Sequence record: OP172796.1
DNA from: Escherichia phage EF202P1
DNA: 64,000 nucleotides
Strand: one strand, 5' to 3'
Positions 3,946 to 57,129 of this stretch are shown here, in pieces; positions within the stretch are counted from its first letter, which is position 1; each line of letters starts with the position of its first letter. Position numbers and translations under genes: made by a program. The notes under the pieces are model-generated. The model saw nothing but the letters and a program-made list of their open reading frames with translations. It did no database searches and had not been told where the DNA came from.

Positions 3946-11964
<8,019 letters not shown>

Positions 11965-15664: not shown

Positions 15665-15862
15665 ATGCCTACAATCCTAGCAATTCTTCTAAAAAATCTA
15701 GGTAGCTTCTTCTGGAAACTCATTTTATCCCTTCTAAGTGAATACATGATTGAGAAAGTGTTCTTTAGGCTTGCAAGATACCTTGCGAGTAAAACAGACA
15801 CACCTATTGATGATGAGTTCGTAGATAACTTAGAAAAAGCTTTTAAGGGGGAGAATAAATGA
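15665..15862 (+). CDS. small membrane protein (holin-like candidate)
   Basis: 65 aa, hydrophobic N-terminus, charged C-terminus; follows promoter+hairpin after tail fibre. Confidence 0.3.
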   Translation: MPTILAILLKNLGSFFWKLILSLLSEYMIEKVFFRLARYLASKTDTPIDDEFVDNLEKAFKGENK

Positions 15863-16230
15863 AGTGGCTAGAGGAAGCTTTTAAAAATAATATTGGTGCA
15901 ATTGTAGTTGGTATTTTTAGTGTTATTGGGATGTATACCACCATGCAAGTTTCGGATGGTAAACAAGAAGTGTCTATCACAACAAAGTTACAGCAGTTGG
16001 ATAATTATTCCAAAAGTAATTATTCAGCTATCCGTGATTTACAGTCTGATATGAGGTTGCTTCAGCTAGGGATGGAGAACCAGAAAGTCCAGTTAGAGAA
16101 TGTTAAGGGTGAGAACGCAAAACTTACTAAGACTCTTGATAAATTCTCTGATAGTGTGAACAATCTGGCTCAATCAGTATCAGCCCTCCAAGCTATTACT
16201 GAAAAGAACACAAAGAATACTGAAAAGTAA
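15859..16230 (+). CDS. membrane-anchored coiled-coil protein
   Basis: N-terminal TM segment (IGAIVVGIFSVIGMYTT) plus coiled-coil rest; coupled to upstream ORF. Confidence 0.3.
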   Translation: MKWLEEAFKNNIGAIVVGIFSVIGMYTTMQVSDGKQEVSITTKLQQLDNYSKSNYSAIRDLQSDMRLLQLGMENQKVQLENVKGENAKLTKTLDKFSDSVNNLAQSVSALQAITEKNTKNTEK

Positions 16231-52788: not shown

Positions 52789-53337
52789 ATGAAGAAGTTG
52801 ATTCTAGGTTTGTGCTTAATGTTTACAGCACACTTATCTTATGCAGTTGACTGCCCAGAGCTATCAATTAGTCAAAAAGTAAACATGTTAAAAGCTTACC
52901 AGTATGGTGAGAATAATATGGGTAAAGGATGGGGCATCACTCTAGCTGCTATAGCCTTACAAGAGTCAGAGTTAGGTCTGAATATGGAGAATAAAAAGAC
53001 CCATGACTATGGTATCTTCCAGAATCACTTGAAGACTGTTGTAAAGCGTAACAAAATCAGTCCTAATGTGGCTAAAAAGAAACTCTTAAAAGACTTCGAC
53101 TATGCTGCAAAGGAAACACACAAAGAGCTTGAGTTTTGGACGAAGGTACATGGTCACCCAAAGTCAAAGAAGACTTTACAAAAAGTTTTAGCATCATATA
53201 ATGCTGGGTATTCGTACAAAATTCCTAAAGCTAAGAAATACTCTCAAGATGTCTACAACAATATGAAAGTTATTGCTCAATGTGAATTTGCAACAAACAT
53301 TTCTAAGGTAAATCATGAAAAAATTAAGAAAGTCTGA
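52789..53337 (+). CDS. lytic transglycosylase / lysozyme-like protein with signal peptide (candidate endolysin)
   Basis: Signal peptide MKKLILGLCLMFTAHLSYA; SLT-like catalytic region ALQESELG ... DYGIFQ. Confidence 0.5.
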   Translation: MKKLILGLCLMFTAHLSYAVDCPELSISQKVNMLKAYQYGENNMGKGWGITLAAIALQESELGLNMENKKTHDYGIFQNHLKTVVKRNKISPNVAKKKLLKDFDYAAKETHKELEFWTKVHGHPKSKKTLQKVLASYNAGYSYKIPKAKKYSQDVYNNMKVIAQCEFATNISKVNHEKIKKV

Positions 53338-54010
53338 TGAAGTACTGTGCCATGCTTATGACTTGCATCCTCATGAGTTAGGTCTTGATTCATGTGTATG
53401 GACTCCAGAACAGTGCAGAGATTTTGAAGATACTGCAAGAGAAGTTGTATGTTCACTTGAAGAGTTCCACACGCCAGAAACAATTGTGAACGTTGTGGAC
53501 AAAGAGACTGGACAATCTATAGGTGTAAGACGTGACAGTTTAGTTATAGTCAATAAAGACCTTGTAGAAAAAGGTAACCTCATCTTAGCAGATATTGATG
53601 GTGTTCTTACAAATTTTAATCACGAAGACTGCTCAACGGAACTGATTGATGGGTCATTTTCACAGTACACTAATTTGCTTGACTCTGTAAGTGCAAAACC
53701 AACGTATGTTTTTAATATTATTGATGCAATTGCTAACCATGCTGCCATTGGACTCTTGACAGCGAGGGGTGAATCTCAGAGAATACCTACTGAGATGTTT
53801 TTAAGGCATTACATAGAGCATGATTACATGCTTTTCATGCGTGGTTTTGGAACTAACTCTATAAGTGCAGAAAGTTTAAAAGTTAGGATGATTCAGTCTT
53901 GCATTCTTCCTTACTTTAATATAGTATGCTTTATAGAAGATACAGAGAAGAATGTTCAGAAGGTAAACAGAATCCTTCCACACATTAAAACCATGTTAGT
54001 TAAACATTGA
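53315..54010 (+). CDS. HAD-superfamily hydrolase-like protein
   Basis: HAD motif I LILADIDGVLT and motif IV-like FIEDTEKN. Confidence 0.4.
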   Translation: MKKLRKSDEVLCHAYDLHPHELGLDSCVWTPEQCRDFEDTAREVVCSLEEFHTPETIVNVVDKETGQSIGVRRDSLVIVNKDLVEKGNLILADIDGVLTNFNHEDCSTELIDGSFSQYTNLLDSVSAKPTYVFNIIDAIANHAAIGLLTARGESQRIPTEMFLRHYIEHDYMLFMRGFGTNSISAESLKVRMIQSCILPYFNIVCFIEDTEKNVQKVNRILPHIKTMLVKH

Positions 54011-54021
54011 GAGAAAAACTT

Positions 54022-54486
54022 ATGAACAATATCATTACGGTAGCACTGGACGATACGACAAACAAATCTGTAGTAGTTCGTAAATTGATTCAAGGTAACT
54101 TTGAAGGTAAAATTTTTCGTGCTGTCAATGTAAAAGCTGATGGCAGCATTCGTGAATATCGTGCATTGTTGAATGTTAAAAAGCACGTAAAAGGTGCTGG
54201 TTCAACGACTGCACACAAAGAAAACCTGATGACTATTTATGATATGGGTAAGGCTTCAGAGTTAGGTGCTGAAGGTATCGTTAAAGAAGGTGCTCCGTAT
54301 CGCTCTTTCAATCTGGAAACTACTCTTATGCTTTCCTTTACAAGTGGTTCTAAAACAATCACTTACCTCTTTACTGATGCTGCAACGGTATCTGCTATTA
54401 AGGATGGCACTGTCAAAGCTGGCGTAGTTGCTGCTGCAAAAGCTTCTTCGATGGCTGCGAATATCCTTGCTAAAGTCCTCAGTTAA
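54022..54486 (+). CDS. hypothetical protein
   Basis: ORF followed by UUCG-loop terminator. Confidence 0.4.
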   Translation: MNNIITVALDDTTNKSVVVRKLIQGNFEGKIFRAVNVKADGSIREYRALLNVKKHVKGAGSTTAHKENLMTIYDMGKASELGAEGIVKEGAPYRSFNLETTLMLSFTSGSKTITYLFTDAATVSAIKDGTVKAGVVAAAKASSMAANILAKVLS

Positions 54487-54497
54487 GGTTAAGATAC

Positions 54498-54521
54498 AGG
54501 CTCCTTCGGGAGCCTTTTTCA
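54498..54521 (+). terminator. intrinsic terminator
   Basis: AGGCTCC-TTCG-GGAGCCT then TTTTT. Confidence 0.7.
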
Positions 54522-54538
54522 TTTCAGGAGATTGTTAA

Positions 54539-54886
54539 ATGACATTTAAAGAGTTCTGCCAAGCTACTTTCATAATTGTTTTCTTAGTTGGAGCAGGTGT
54601 CTGGGGAGGATACTCTTACAGAGACTACCAAGTTGCTGAAGCTGAGCTAAATAATGAGAAATTAATAAGTGTTGCCAAAGATGCTTATCAGGAAGGTTTA
54701 GCCACACTCAGCACCAATTACAAAAATGATTTGAAAGATGTGCTTGCTAAGAATAAGCATACAAAAGAGGTACTAACATATGAAAAAACTAAGCCAGAGT
54801 TTTATAATGTTTGTGTTACTGATAATTATGTCAGGGTGTTCAACGAACAAAGTGAACAGTACATTCAAAAACTCCCAAGTAAGTGA
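54539..54886 (+). CDS. candidate i-spanin (Rz-like)
   Basis: N-terminal TM segment then coiled-coil-like periplasmic part; lipoprotein ORF embedded at 3' end in another frame. Confidence 0.4.
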   Translation: MTFKEFCQATFIIVFLVGAGVWGGYSYRDYQVAEAELNNEKLISVAKDAYQEGLATLSTNYKNDLKDVLAKNKHTKEVLTYEKTKPEFYNVCVTDNYVRVFNEQSEQYIQKLPSK

Positions 54887-55049
54887 GAGTGATAAGTACA
54901 CTCAAGAAGAGTCGAGATTCACTATCAAAGGTAATACCGGCAGTGATGTGGCAGCAGCCCTTGAGTTTTATCGTGATGGTTTTTACCAGTGCACAATAAA
55001 AGCTAATAACCTTATTGATATGATTTTATTAGGGAACAAACAGCAATGA
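54780..55049 (+). CDS. candidate o-spanin lipoprotein (Rz1-like)
   Basis: Signal peptide with lipobox IMSGC; starts inside 54539..54886 in a different frame. Confidence 0.4.
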   Translation: MKKLSQSFIMFVLLIIMSGCSTNKVNSTFKNSQVSESDKYTQEESRFTIKGNTGSDVAAALEFYRDGFYQCTIKANNLIDMILLGNKQQ

Positions 55050-55315
55050 CAGAGAATGAAGACACTTTCTATGTAGAAGGGTACTTACTGCTACCACGAC
55101 CAAAAGAAACTTATATGCGGATTGATTTCTCACCAACCATTATGGATAATGTGATGTGTCATATTTTTATACAAGGTATCACAGCACAACTAAAGCATGT
55201 TGGTAAAGAGTGCAAAATAAAGGTTGACACTCATCCAGAAATCAAAGAGAATCACTACACATGGTTCTTACCAGACTCTAAAGAAATCTTAGCAGTTCTT
55301 AAAACGAGGAAATGA
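55046..55315 (+). CDS. hypothetical protein
   Basis: Coupled ORF. Confidence 0.35.
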   Translation: MTENEDTFYVEGYLLLPRPKETYMRIDFSPTIMDNVMCHIFIQGITAQLKHVGKECKIKVDTHPEIKENHYTWFLPDSKEILAVLKTRK

Positions 55316-55626
55316 TTATGCAATTCCAGCCAACAAATCGTGGATTTTCTTATGCAGAATTTAAAGATGCTAAAGGGGAAATTTGTACTTTACAAGAGAG
55401 TTCATCATATGAACCATGTATCTGGTTAGGTGCTAAAGAGGTCTCTGTTCAGTACCTAGATGGTGGCTGGAAAACACTTGATATCCCAGCATTAGTAGGT
55501 AAAGATTTTGTAGGTAACCAAAGAATGAAACTCAATCAAGAACAGGTAAAAGAACTGTTGCCGTACCTTCAATACTTTGCTGAAAATGGTGAATTACCAA
55601 CAGAGGAACTTACAAATGCAGATTAA
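55312..55626 (+). CDS. hypothetical protein
   Basis: Coupled ORF. Confidence 0.35.
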   Translation: MIMQFQPTNRGFSYAEFKDAKGEICTLQESSSYEPCIWLGAKEVSVQYLDGGWKTLDIPALVGKDFVGNQRMKLNQEQVKELLPYLQYFAENGELPTEELTNAD

Positions 55627-55942
55627 CGGAAGAGACTTTGTAGCCGTTTACTATGAGAAAGATAAAGAAGTTGGCGTAGCACAAGTATCTTATGGTAATG
55701 GTAAGTGGTTGTATGGAACAATCGCAGTAGTCGGAACAAGGAGTGATACAAAAACTTTTAAAGATTGTGTTGACCTTCTTGAAGAATCCATACACAATCA
55801 TTGGTGTCTGATATGGATGACTGACAACGAAGTGATAGAACGCTTCAAAAAGATTGGTATCAACATTGATAGTATTGAGCATGTTGATTTGTATGAGCTA
55901 ACTGAGAAGGTAAACTATGAAAGTAATACTAGCCAGAGATAA
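55616..55942 (+). CDS. hypothetical protein
   Basis: Start at ATG overlapping upstream stop. Confidence 0.35.
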   Translation: MQINGRDFVAVYYEKDKEVGVAQVSYGNGKWLYGTIAVVGTRSDTKTFKDCVDLLEESIHNHWCLIWMTDNEVIERFKKIGINIDSIEHVDLYELTEKVNYESNTSQR

Positions 55943-56150
55943 AAAGACACGTAAGATTGTAAGTTCAGCAGTATTCATAGGGAGAGATGAAGTCGTCCCG
56001 TTTGCAGGGGAAGATGTGTTAACTTATAAGAAGGGTTTAAAACGTAAATTCAGTGACCGTTTACGTGGCTTCATCTCTGAACCATTAGAAGATTTTAAAA
56101 GTCGTTGTGGTAAAGGTATCATCACTCAAGAGGTAATTATTCATGGCTGA
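55917..56150 (+). CDS. hypothetical protein
   Basis: ORF. Confidence 0.3.
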   Translation: MKVILARDKKTRKIVSSAVFIGRDEVVPFAGEDVLTYKKGLKRKFSDRLRGFISEPLEDFKSRCGKGIITQEVIIHG

Positions 56151-56343
56151 CTTCTGCAAAGACTGCTCTATCGAAATGTTCGGACGTGATACAGGCGACT
56201 TAAAAGGTCTCATCACTGAAGATGACTTTAAAGCTGGCTATGCAATGCCAGTAATCTGTGAAGGTTGTGGGTGCATCTGGGTAGACCATGAAGGGCAACG
56301 TGTAAAACCTTCAGAAGATAAAGAATCTTGGGAGAGATGTTAA
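56143..56343 (+). CDS. zinc-ribbon small protein
   Basis: CKDC ... CEGCGC motif. Confidence 0.35.
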   Translation: MADFCKDCSIEMFGRDTGDLKGLITEDDFKAGYAMPVICEGCGCIWVDHEGQRVKPSEDKESWERC

Positions 56344-57129
56344 ATGGGTATTGTAAAAATCATCAATGGGGATATCTTCTCCGCATTTGATAAAGGTAAG
56401 TTTGATATCATTGGTCACGGTTGCAACTGTATGAACTTAATGGGTGCAGGTATCGCTGACAAGATTTCTAAACTTTACCCAAAAGCATATGAGACCGATA
56501 CAGAAGTTTATCTGTATGCAGGTGGCATAGGTCACAAACCCTGTGAAAATTTACTAGGGAATTTCTCTGTAGCACGTTTAGAACAAGGCCGTATAGCTAA
56601 CCTTTACACTCAGCTTAAGACTGGTAAAGATGCCCGATACAGTGCTTTAGAGTCATCTTTGAAACAACTTAACAGATACTGTGAAGTTAATCAGTTGAAG
56701 AAAGTTGGTTTACCTATGATTGGTGCAGGTATTGGTGGACTTGACCCTCAAGCCGTCACAGTTATCATCAATCAGGTGATGAAGAGTGTAGATGTCTATC
56801 TATATGTCTATGAAGGAGAGATGTACCACAAGTTACGCTCAGGTTGGAAGAACTACTGTGAACCAGAATACTTTGCAGGTGTAGTAACGTTCACAGATAA
56901 CGCAGTTACCCTCTTCAGACGAAGAAAAGGTAAGATACATCAAAGTAACCCTCCGGTTGAAAAGATGTCTCTAAGTAACGCTCTAGTTACCCACCTGTCG
57001 AAGAGCAATCACAGAATTGCCGTGACATTTGGTAGCGATGCAGACACCTACATCTATGCAAGAACTGATGAGAATGTCGAGGAAATTTTCTCATCACCGG
57101 AAGTAACCTTCTTAGACGCAAAGAACTAA
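56344..57129 (+). CDS. macro-domain protein (ADP-ribose binding/hydrolase) with C-terminal extension
   Basis: N-terminal macro signature INGDIFSAF...FDIIGHGCNCMNLMGAGIA and later LPMIGAGIGGLDP. Confidence 0.65.
   Translation: MGIVKIINGDIFSAFDKGKFDIIGHGCNCMNLMGAGIADKISKLYPKAYETDTEVYLYAGGIGHKPCENLLGNFSVARLEQGRIANLYTQLKTGKDARYSALESSLKQLNRYCEVNQLKKVGLPMIGAGIGGLDPQAVTVIINQVMKSVDVYLYVYEGEMYHKLRSGWKNYCEPEYFAGVVTFTDNAVTLFRRRKGKIHQSNPPVEKMSLSNALVTHLSKSNHRIAVTFGSDADTYIYARTDENVEEIFSSPEVTFLDAKN

What the first reader, a model, noticed from the sequence alone, without database searches (positions are those of the whole stretch)
54539..55049. Candidate overlapping spanin pair (lipoprotein gene embedded in the 3' end of a membrane coiled-coil gene)
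54539..54886 encodes an N-terminal TM segment plus coiled-coil-like body; 54780..55049 starts inside it in another frame and encodes a lipoprotein (MKKLSQSFIMFVLLIIMSGC). That is the Rz/Rz1 overlapped architecture. The putative o-spanin is not Pro-rich and the pair is not next to the candidate endolysin (52789..53337) or the holin-like ORFs at 15665..16230, so the lysis functions appear dispersed.
Basis: inference. Interest (0 to 1): 0.4.

Follow-up and report, generated by a model that had tools for sequence, protein, structure and literature searches.

The report
Known FelixO1-type overlapped spanin gene pair
These two overlapping genes are the already catalogued inner- and outer-membrane spanin pair that FelixO1-like phages are thought to use to break the host outer membrane at lysis, so the call is correct but ordinary.

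Summary
ORF 54539..54886 encodes a 115-aa protein with one N-terminal transmembrane segment. ORF 54780..55049 starts inside it in the +1 frame with a 107-nt overlap and encodes an 89-aa lipoprotein (lipobox MSGC, Cys20, Ser at +2). The window is a Felixounavirus genome, 98% identical to phage NBEco005. Several GenBank relatives annotate these same genes as i-spanin and o-spanin. Kongari et al. 2018 list Felix01, UAB_Phi87, FSL_SP-012, Moogle and wV8 in the overlapped "JH2" i- and o-spanin families. Thirteen related loci, from Ounavirinae myophages to phiEco32 and a Klebsiella siphophage, keep the same pair. In all of them the o-gene is in the +1 frame, the overlap is 107-164 nt, the lipobox is present and each periplasmic C-terminus has one invariant Cys. 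In three distant relatives the pair directly follows the endolysin. Both frames show purifying selection, and the overlap is less variable than its flanks. Corrections: the architecture is "overlapped" (P2 LysB/LysC type), not "embedded" (lambda type). The family's canonical endolysin lies outside the window. Scattered lysis genes are a published FelixO1 trait. No experiment on this family was found. Novelty: already known. Interest is low.

The parts
54498..54523 (+). Terminator-like hairpin (AGGCTCC-TTCG-GGAGCCT followed by a T-run) directly upstream of the i-spanin ribosome-binding site
   Evidence: Pattern scan. The equivalent position is annotated as a terminator in Citrobacter phage Mijalis. 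Function is not shown.
54526..54531 (+). Shine-Dalgarno-like CAGGAG for the i-spanin gene
   Evidence: Read from the sequence. An RBS is annotated at the same place in Mijalis.
54539..54886 (+). i-spanin gene (115 aa). It has an N-terminal transmembrane segment at about residues 6-27 and an 88-aa periplasmic domain. The conserved C-terminal motif is EKTKPxFYNxCxTDxYVxxFNEQ, with invariant Cys92.
   Evidence: ORF, phrog_1152 Rz-like spanin at 9e-42, hydropathy, alignment of 14 homologues and GenBank i-spanin annotations.
54765..54771 (+). Shine-Dalgarno-like AAGAGGT for the o-spanin gene, lying inside the i-spanin coding sequence
   Evidence: Read from the sequence. An RBS is annotated at the same place in Mijalis.
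54780..54886 (+). Dual-coding overlap of 107 nt. It encodes i-spanin residues 81-115, which include the conserved C-terminal motif, and in the +1 frame o-spanin residues 1-35 (signal peptide, lipobox and the start of the linker).
   Evidence: Coordinates. Variability is lower than in the flanks, 20.6% against 32-38% of sites, p=0.007.
54780..55049 (+). o-spanin gene (89 aa). It has a signal peptidase II signal with lipobox MSGC (Cys20). The mature 70-aa lipoprotein has no proline and a variable linker. The conserved C-terminal motif is EFYRDxFYxCxxKxNxLID, with invariant Cys71.
   Evidence: ORF. phrog_4180 at 9e-51 and a weak phrog_456 Rz-like spanin match at 5e-5. Lipobox and alignment in 14 loci. 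GenBank o-spanin annotations.

Best explanation
The two ORFs are the two-component spanin of a FelixO1-like myophage (Felixounavirus).

- **i-spanin.** The 115-aa product of 54539..54886 is anchored in the inner membrane by its N-terminal transmembrane segment. Its roughly 88-residue domain, probably largely helical, projects into the periplasm.
- **o-spanin.** The 89-aa product of 54780..55049 is translated from its own ribosome-binding site in the +1 frame. It would be exported, lipidated at Cys20, cleaved by signal peptidase II and sorted by Lol to the inner leaflet of the outer membrane, since Ser rather than Asp follows the Cys.
- **Complex.** The conserved C-terminal segments of the two proteins are inferred to bind each other, forming a bridge across the periplasm through the peptidoglycan mesh. 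The single invariant periplasmic Cys in each subunit is inferred to form Dsb-dependent intermolecular disulfides.
- **Action.** Once holin and endolysin have removed the peptidoglycan, the complexes can move laterally and collapse. They would then fuse or disrupt the outer membrane, which is the last step of lysis.

Shown here: the ORFs, the membrane signals, the overlap, conservation of both frames, family membership and the link to lysis cassettes in relatives. Inferred from the lambda and T4 paradigms: topology, lipidation, complex formation, disulfides and outer-membrane disruption.
For: - **Identity of the genome.** The window region is 95-98% identical to many Felixounavirus genomes. Several of them annotate these exact genes as i-spanin and o-spanin.
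- **Catalogue listing.** Kongari et al. 2018 (PMC6139136) place Felix01, FO1a, UAB_phi87, FSL_SP-010/012/107, Moogle, Mushroom, EC6 and WV8 in the overlapped 'JH2' i-spanin family (15 members) and o-spanin family (11 members). The window proteins are 98.3% identical to the FSL SP-012 i-spanin and 97.8% identical to the UAB_Phi87 o-spanin.
- **Profile match.** phrog_1152 'Rz-like spanin' matches at E=9e-42.
- **Conserved architecture.** All 13 further loci examined keep an N-terminal-TMD protein followed by a +1-frame lipoprotein gene overlapping its 3' end by 107-164 nt. These include Mooglevirus, Suspvirus, Kolesnikvirus, Hafnia, Yersinia and Pectobacterium phages, phiEco32 and Klebsiella phage Carvaje. 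Each has a lipobox, Ser or Thr at +2 and one invariant Cys near each C-terminus.
- **Lysis-cassette context.** In Yersinia phage P778 and Pectobacterium phage Wc4 the pair directly follows the endolysin. In Klebsiella phage Carvaje it follows lysozyme and holin.
- **Selection.** There is a synonymous excess in each single-coding part, and variability is reduced in the overlap.
- **Fit to known rules.** One or more periplasmic Cys near the C-terminal interaction site fits the general rule for spanins (PMC6139136). T4 also keeps its spanins apart from holin and endolysin. PMC4319497 states the same for FelixO1-like phages.
Against: - I found no experiment on this spanin family. PMC6139136 says essentially all experimental work was done on lambda Rz/Rz1, with T4 tested by complementation.
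- Neither protein matches a Pfam family. NCBIfam gave only matches far below the curated cut-offs.
- The o-spanin's own PHROG (phrog_4180) is labelled 'unknown function'.
- The mature o-spanin has no proline-rich region, which is mutationally sensitive in lambda Rz1.
- A crude heptad test found no coiled-coil signal in the window i-spanin.
- The AlphaFold2 single-sequence models are low confidence, with pLDDT 51 and 53.
- In this genome the pair is not next to a holin or an endolysin.
Confidence: 0.88

Rival explanations
1. The pair is a membrane protein plus an outer-membrane lipoprotein with a non-lysis role, for example superinfection exclusion or receptor blocking as with T5 Llp. The gene overlap would only reflect genome compaction.
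For: - In this genome the pair lies in a block with rIIA/rIIB, polynucleotide kinase and a macro-domain protein rather than with holin or endolysin.
- The o-spanin's PHROG is 'unknown function'.
- It has no proline-rich region.
- No experiment on the family was found.
Against: - The two genes are inherited together, in the same overlapped arrangement, across myo-, podo- and siphophages.
- In three relatives they sit immediately after the endolysin or holin.
- T4 shows that working spanins can lie next to pnk and away from the other lysis genes.
- No other spanin candidate is annotated in the reference genome tables I read.
Confidence: 0.07
2. Only the 115-aa membrane protein is a real gene. 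The 89-codon +1-frame ORF is a chance open frame in AT-rich DNA.
For: - Codon-shuffled versions of the first gene leave the +1 frame open across the overlap in about 10% of trials.
- Many GenBank records do not call the ORF, or they truncate it.
- PMC8300805 reports only an i-spanin in one phage.
Against: - The ORF, its ATG, the SD-like sequence, the signal peptide, the lipobox and a C-terminal motif with an invariant Cys are kept in 14 of 14 loci, down to about 30% identity.
- The non-overlapped 160 nt shows a 49 S to 29 N substitution pattern in this frame.
- The profile match to phrog_4180 is E=9e-51.
- Gene callers are known to miss embedded and overlapped o-spanin genes (PMC6139136).
Confidence: 0.01
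3. The 115-aa protein acts alone as a holin, antiholin or other lysis-timing membrane protein. The lipoprotein would be an accessory, not its partner in a periplasm-spanning complex.
For: - It is a single-TMD protein with a periplasmic domain.
- rIIA and rIIB are nearby.
- The gene annotated as holin in this family (window 15859..16230) has only an 'unknown function' PHROG, so the holin assignment in the family is itself uncertain.
Against: - The most conserved segments of both proteins are their C-termini, each with one invariant Cys. This is the pattern expected for the spanin C-terminal interaction site.
- In Carvaje a separate holin/antiholin gene precedes the pair.
Confidence: 0.03

Closest known systems
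FelixO1/JH2 overlapped two-component spanin family (SpaninDB; Kongari et al. 2018, PMC6139136)
   Same: These are the same genes. The window proteins are 95-100% identical to the i- and o-spanins of listed members such as UAB_Phi87 and FSL SP-012, and 77-81% identical to the Moogle-group phages Mijalis, Sf13 and Sf14. The overlapped architecture and genome position are also the same.
   Different: Nothing of substance. The alignment here also shows that the phiEco32-group and Carvaje o-spanins share the C-terminal motif, although the 40%-identity clustering put phiEco32-type o-spanins in a separate family.
Phage P2 LysB/LysC (prototype of the overlapped spanin architecture)
   Same: The o-spanin gene starts in the +1 frame inside the 3' part of the i-spanin gene and extends beyond its stop. 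The P2 prototype is as described in PMC6139136 and from established knowledge.
   Different: No sequence relationship was detected: no Pfam family matched either protein. P2 keeps its spanins in a lysis cassette, whereas here they are apart from holin and endolysin.
Lambda Rz/Rz1
   Same: The parts list and presumed mechanism are the same: an inner-membrane type II protein, an outer-membrane lipoprotein, periplasmic Cys residues and the last step of lysis.
   Different: - Lambda is embedded, with Rz1 wholly inside Rz. This pair is overlapped.
- Rz1 has a mutationally sensitive penta-proline stretch. This mature o-spanin has 0 Pro and probably a helical C-terminus (low confidence).
- No Pfam family, Rz or Rz1 included, matched.
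- Rz has two coiled-coil helices. No heptad signal was seen here.
T4 PseT.3/PseT.2
   Same: The spanin genes lie away from holin and endolysin and within about 0.5 kb of the polynucleotide kinase gene. The o-spanin is not proline-rich and is predicted to have a C-terminal helix.
   Different: - T4 has the separated architecture, with the pair upstream of pseT rather than downstream.
- There is no sequence similarity beyond the signal peptide (E=17 and 0.035).
- T4 has 0 periplasmic Cys in the i-spanin and 2 in the o-spanin. This pair has 1 in each.

Membership tests
Two-component spanin (functional class) | i-spanin: a small protein with a single N-terminal transmembrane segment and a periplasmic C-terminal domain | tested here: met
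   The one hydrophobic stretch is at residues 6-24 (KD19 1.75), and the remaining 88 residues are hydrophilic. N-in/C-out topology is inferred, not tested.
Two-component spanin (functional class) | o-spanin: an outer-membrane lipoprotein signal, with a lipobox Cys and no Asp at +2 | tested here: met
   The N-terminus is MKKLSQSFIMFVLLIIMSGC|S. The lipobox is kept in 14 of 14 homologues, with Ser or Thr at +2. Actual lipidation could not be tested.
Two-component spanin (functional class) | Adjacent genes in an embedded, overlapped or separated arrangement, i-spanin first | tested here: met
   The arrangement is overlapped: +1 frame, 107 nt shared and 163 nt beyond the i-spanin stop.
Two-component spanin (functional class) | At least one periplasmic Cys near the C-terminal interaction site, for intermolecular disulfides | tested here: met
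   i-spanin Cys92 and o-spanin Cys71 are invariant in 14 of 14 sequences. The rule comes from PMC6139136. Disulfide formation was not tested.
Two-component spanin (functional class) | Location in a lysis cassette with holin and endolysin (common but not obligatory) | tested here: not met
   Here the pair follows rIIB, an SLT-like ORF, pnk and one further ORF. The annotated holin is about 39 kb away in the window, and the endolysin is outside the window. The feature is met in the relatives YenP778, PecWc4 and Carvaje. T4 shows it is not a requirement.
Two-component spanin (functional class) | Required for outer-membrane disruption; complements lambda Rz/Rz1 amber mutants | not testable with these tools
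   This needs an experiment. I found no published test for this family.
FelixO1/JH2 spanin families of Kongari et al. 2018 | At least 40% identity over at least 40% of the length to a family member, for both subunits | tested here: met
   The i-spanin is 98.3% identical to that of FSL SP-012, and the o-spanin is 97.8% identical to that of UAB_Phi87. Both phages are listed members.
Lambda Rz / Rz1 sequence families | Match to the Pfam Rz and Rz1 models | tested here: not met
   Neither protein matched any Pfam family at E<=0.01.
Lambda Rz / Rz1 sequence families | Proline-rich region in the mature o-spanin; o-gene wholly embedded in the i-gene | tested here: not met
   There are 0 Pro in the 70 mature residues. 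The o-gene extends beyond the i-gene stop.
T4 PseT.3 / PseT.2 families | Sequence similarity to T4 PseT.3 and PseT.2 | tested here: not met
   BLASTP gave E=17 for the i-spanin. For the o-spanin it gave E=0.035, confined to the signal peptide.

The most novel reading that the evidence does not exclude
This proline-free o-spanin family may use a junction unlike lambda's. It has exactly one invariant Cys in each subunit, placed inside the two conserved C-terminal motifs that presumably contact each other. The junction could be a small folded i-o head locked by a heterotypic (i-to-o) disulfide, rather than the homotypic disulfides seen in lambda and T4. If so, it would be a third structural solution for spanin-mediated membrane fusion, shared by myo-, podo- and siphophages.
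Probability: 0.1. Interest if true: 0.35.

Novelty: already known. Interest (0 to 1): 0.08.

Why it matters
It matters little beyond correct annotation. The closest relative, NBEco005, and many other Felixounavirus records still label these genes 'hypothetical protein' or start the o-spanin after its signal peptide, so the coordinates and start codon given here are the useful output. The family is a reasonable candidate for experiment. It is a proline-free, probably helical o-spanin with a 1+1 Cys layout that occurs in three phage morphotypes. Even so, its existence and assignment are already in the literature and databases.

Tried and rejected
- **Pfam and NCBIfam.** Scans of both proteins gave no family. 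The NCBIfam hits are only lipoprotein signal-peptide noise and a spurious match far below cut-off.
- **T4 comparison.** BLASTP against T4 PseT.3 and PseT.2, prompted by the shared neighbourhood with pnk, showed no homology.
- **Structure prediction.** AlphaFold2 single-sequence models of both proteins were too uncertain to use for fold searches (pLDDT 51 and 53). I ran none.
- **Coiled coil.** A home-made heptad a/d contrast test was no better than shuffles for the window protein. The test is crude, so I treat the coiled-coil claim as unresolved rather than refuted.
- **Promoter.** The sigma-70 promoter scan gave nothing above chance near the pair: 18 sites against 12.9±4.3 expected. How the pair is transcribed past the upstream terminator-like hairpin is not resolved.
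- **Endolysin candidate.** ORF 52789..53337 is not the family's recognised endolysin and has no PDB sequence relative.

Full report
**What is in the sequence.**
- ORF 54539..54886 (+) encodes 115 aa. ORF 54780..55049 (+) encodes 89 aa.
- The second ORF starts 241 nt into the first, so it is in the +1 frame. It shares 107 nt with the first ORF and continues 163 nt past its stop.
- Each ATG has a Shine-Dalgarno-like sequence 8 nt upstream: AGGAG for the first gene and AAGAGGT for the second.
- The first protein has one hydrophobic stretch, residues 6-24 (KD19 = 1.75), followed by an 88-residue hydrophilic tail.
- The second protein begins MKKLSQSFIMFVLLIIMSGC|S. This has a basic n-region, a hydrophobic core, a lipobox and Ser at +2. 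Its 70-residue mature part has no proline and one further Cys, at position 71.
- A terminator-like hairpin with a T-run at 54498..54523 sits just upstream.

**Where the window comes from.** The region 53300..56300 is 98% identical to phage NBEco005 and 90-97% identical to more than 200 Escherichia, Salmonella, Shigella and Citrobacter phages of the genus Felixounavirus. In records such as JN01 and Mijalis, the two ORFs are annotated at the same positions as i-spanin and o-spanin. Nataliec also labels both but starts the o-spanin 48 nt downstream. In others, including the closest relative, both are 'hypothetical protein'.

**Is the second frame real?**
- I collected 13 related loci by tblastn and extracted the genes.
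- The loci cover Felixounavirus (JN01, nataliec), Mooglevirus (Mijalis, Sf14), Suspvirus (mistaenkt, PC79-13) and Kolesnikvirus (Erwinia M7, Salmonella SE5). They also include Hafnia, Yersinia and Pectobacterium phages, the podophage phiEco32 and the Klebsiella siphophage Carvaje.
- Every locus has an N-terminal-TMD protein of 115-132 aa. A +1-frame lipoprotein gene overlaps its 3' end by 107-164 nt.
- Lipoboxes are [MIT][SA][GAS]C, followed by Ser or Thr.
- The most conserved parts are the two C-termini: EKTKPxFYNxCxTDxYVxxFNEQ in the i-spanin and EFYRDxFYxCxxKxNxLID in the o-spanin. Each carries one invariant Cys.
- Among the seven sequences that align at the DNA level, differences in the single-coding parts are mainly synonymous: 58 S to 31 N and 49 S to 29 N. 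The overlap has fewer variable sites, 20.6% against 32-38% (Fisher p=0.007).
- The overlap pairs the constrained i-spanin C-terminal motif with the o-spanin signal peptide and the start of its linker. In the 14-sequence alignment that part of the o-spanin is much less conserved, apart from the lipobox.
- Chance alone would leave 89 codons open with probability about 0.003.

**Evidence on function.**
- PHROG phrog_1152 'Rz-like spanin' matches the first protein at 9e-42. The second matches phrog_4180 (unnamed) at 9e-51, and weakly phrog_456 'Rz-like spanin'.
- In Yersinia phage P778 and Pectobacterium phage Wc4 the homologous pair directly follows the endolysin. In Klebsiella phage Carvaje it follows lysozyme and holin/antiholin. 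This places the family in a classical lysis cassette.
- The 1+1 periplasmic Cys layout near the C-termini fits the general spanin rule in PMC6139136.
- I found no experimental test of this family. The function is inferred from the lambda and T4 paradigms.

**What is already known.**
- Kongari et al. 2018 (PMC6139136) list Felix01, FO1a, UAB_phi87, FSL_SP-010/012/107, Moogle, Mushroom, EC6 and WV8 in the overlapped 'JH2' i-spanin and o-spanin families. The phiEco32-type phages share the i-spanin family.
- The window proteins are 98.3% identical to the FSL SP-012 i-spanin and 97.8% identical to the UAB_Phi87 o-spanin.
- The finding and its 'dispersed lysis genes' remark are therefore both published knowledge.

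1. Lambda Rz/Rz1 is the embedded type. This pair is the overlapped type, as in P2 LysB/LysC.
2. The 'candidate endolysin' 52789..53337 has a Sec-type signal peptide and, by eye, the SLT motifs QES, GIFQ and SYNAG. Its Pfam SLT score is below cut-off, its PHROG is 'unknown' and it has no PDB sequence relative. The recognised endolysin of the genus is nataliec_40 (154 aa; phrog_7 at 1e-57). It has no tblastn hit in the window and maps to the roughly 25 kb of genome the window lacks.
3. The 'coiled-coil-like body' is unproven. A crude heptad test is no better than shuffles. The AlphaFold2 single-sequence model gives helices over residues 27-71 followed by a small mixed C-terminal part (pLDDT 51). 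The o-spanin model gives a low-confidence linker at residues 21-50 and a C-terminal helix at 54-85 (pLDDT 53).

**Comparison with paradigms.**
- No Pfam family matched either protein, so lambda Rz and Rz1 are not matched.
- BLASTP found no similarity to T4 PseT.3 or PseT.2.
- T4 resembles this phage in three ways. Its spanins are detached from holin and endolysin, they lie beside the polynucleotide kinase gene, and its o-spanin is not proline-rich.

**Verdict.** This is a real, conserved, dual-coding spanin gene pair. Interest is low. The only open points are experimental: the function, the disulfide pattern and the structure of the C-terminal junction in this proline-free family.

Noticed in passing
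window 52789..53337 (+): This 182-aa ORF has a cleavable-looking Sec signal peptide (…HLSYA|VD) and, by eye, the three lytic-transglycosylase motifs QES, GIFQ and SYNAG. The Pfam SLT match is only E=0.0055, below cut-off. Its PHROG is phrog_600 'unknown', and it has no PDB sequence hit. A periplasmic muralytic enzyme encoded between rIIB and pnk, separate from the true endolysin, remains unexplained.
   Followed up: partly
window 15665..15862 and 15859..16230 (+): The 123-aa ORF that GenBank relatives call 'holin' has one N-terminal TMD and a long charged tail. Its PHROG (phrog_4038) has no assigned function, and the 65-aa ORF upstream is phrog_402, also unknown. The holin assignment in this genus therefore rests on annotation transfer.
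   Followed up: partly
window 56344..57129 (+); L007 2939..3379; L006 2995..3777: The macro-domain protein annotated as 'phosphatase' lies downstream of the spanins. It is homologous to phiEco32 gp37 (E=2e-9), which directly follows the phiEco32 spanin pair. A gene annotated 'phosphatase' also directly follows the pair in Erwinia phage M7, though I did not compare its sequence. The spanin plus macro-domain neighbourhood is thus shared at least between Ounavirinae myophages and a Kuravirus podophage.
   Followed up: partly
window 53315..54010 (pnk) and 54539..55049; L016 (T4) 4003..5782: The polynucleotide kinase gene lies about 0.5 kb upstream of the spanins here. In T4, pseT.3 and pseT.2 lie just upstream of pseT.1 and pseT. 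The spanin proteins are not detectably related, so this is either coincidence or an old neighbourhood with replaced genes.
   Followed up: partly
L002 4528..4749, L008 1005..1211, L009 1014..1208, L007 2766..2939: Several GenBank records start the o-spanin downstream of its signal peptide, or leave the pair as 'hypothetical protein' (NBEco005). The conserved MK[KR] start with an SD-like sequence is the consistent one in all 14 loci.
   Followed up: yes
window 54498..54523 (+): A terminator-like hairpin lies only about 15 nt before the i-spanin start codon, with no convincing sigma-70 promoter in between. The same position is annotated as a terminator in Mijalis. How the spanin transcript is made (read-through or a phage-specific promoter) is open.
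   Followed up: no
window 54262..54522 (-): An 86-aa antisense ORF inside the gene upstream of the spanins is annotated as a CDS in phage JN01 (QHJ72550.1). It is probably a spurious call.
   Followed up: no
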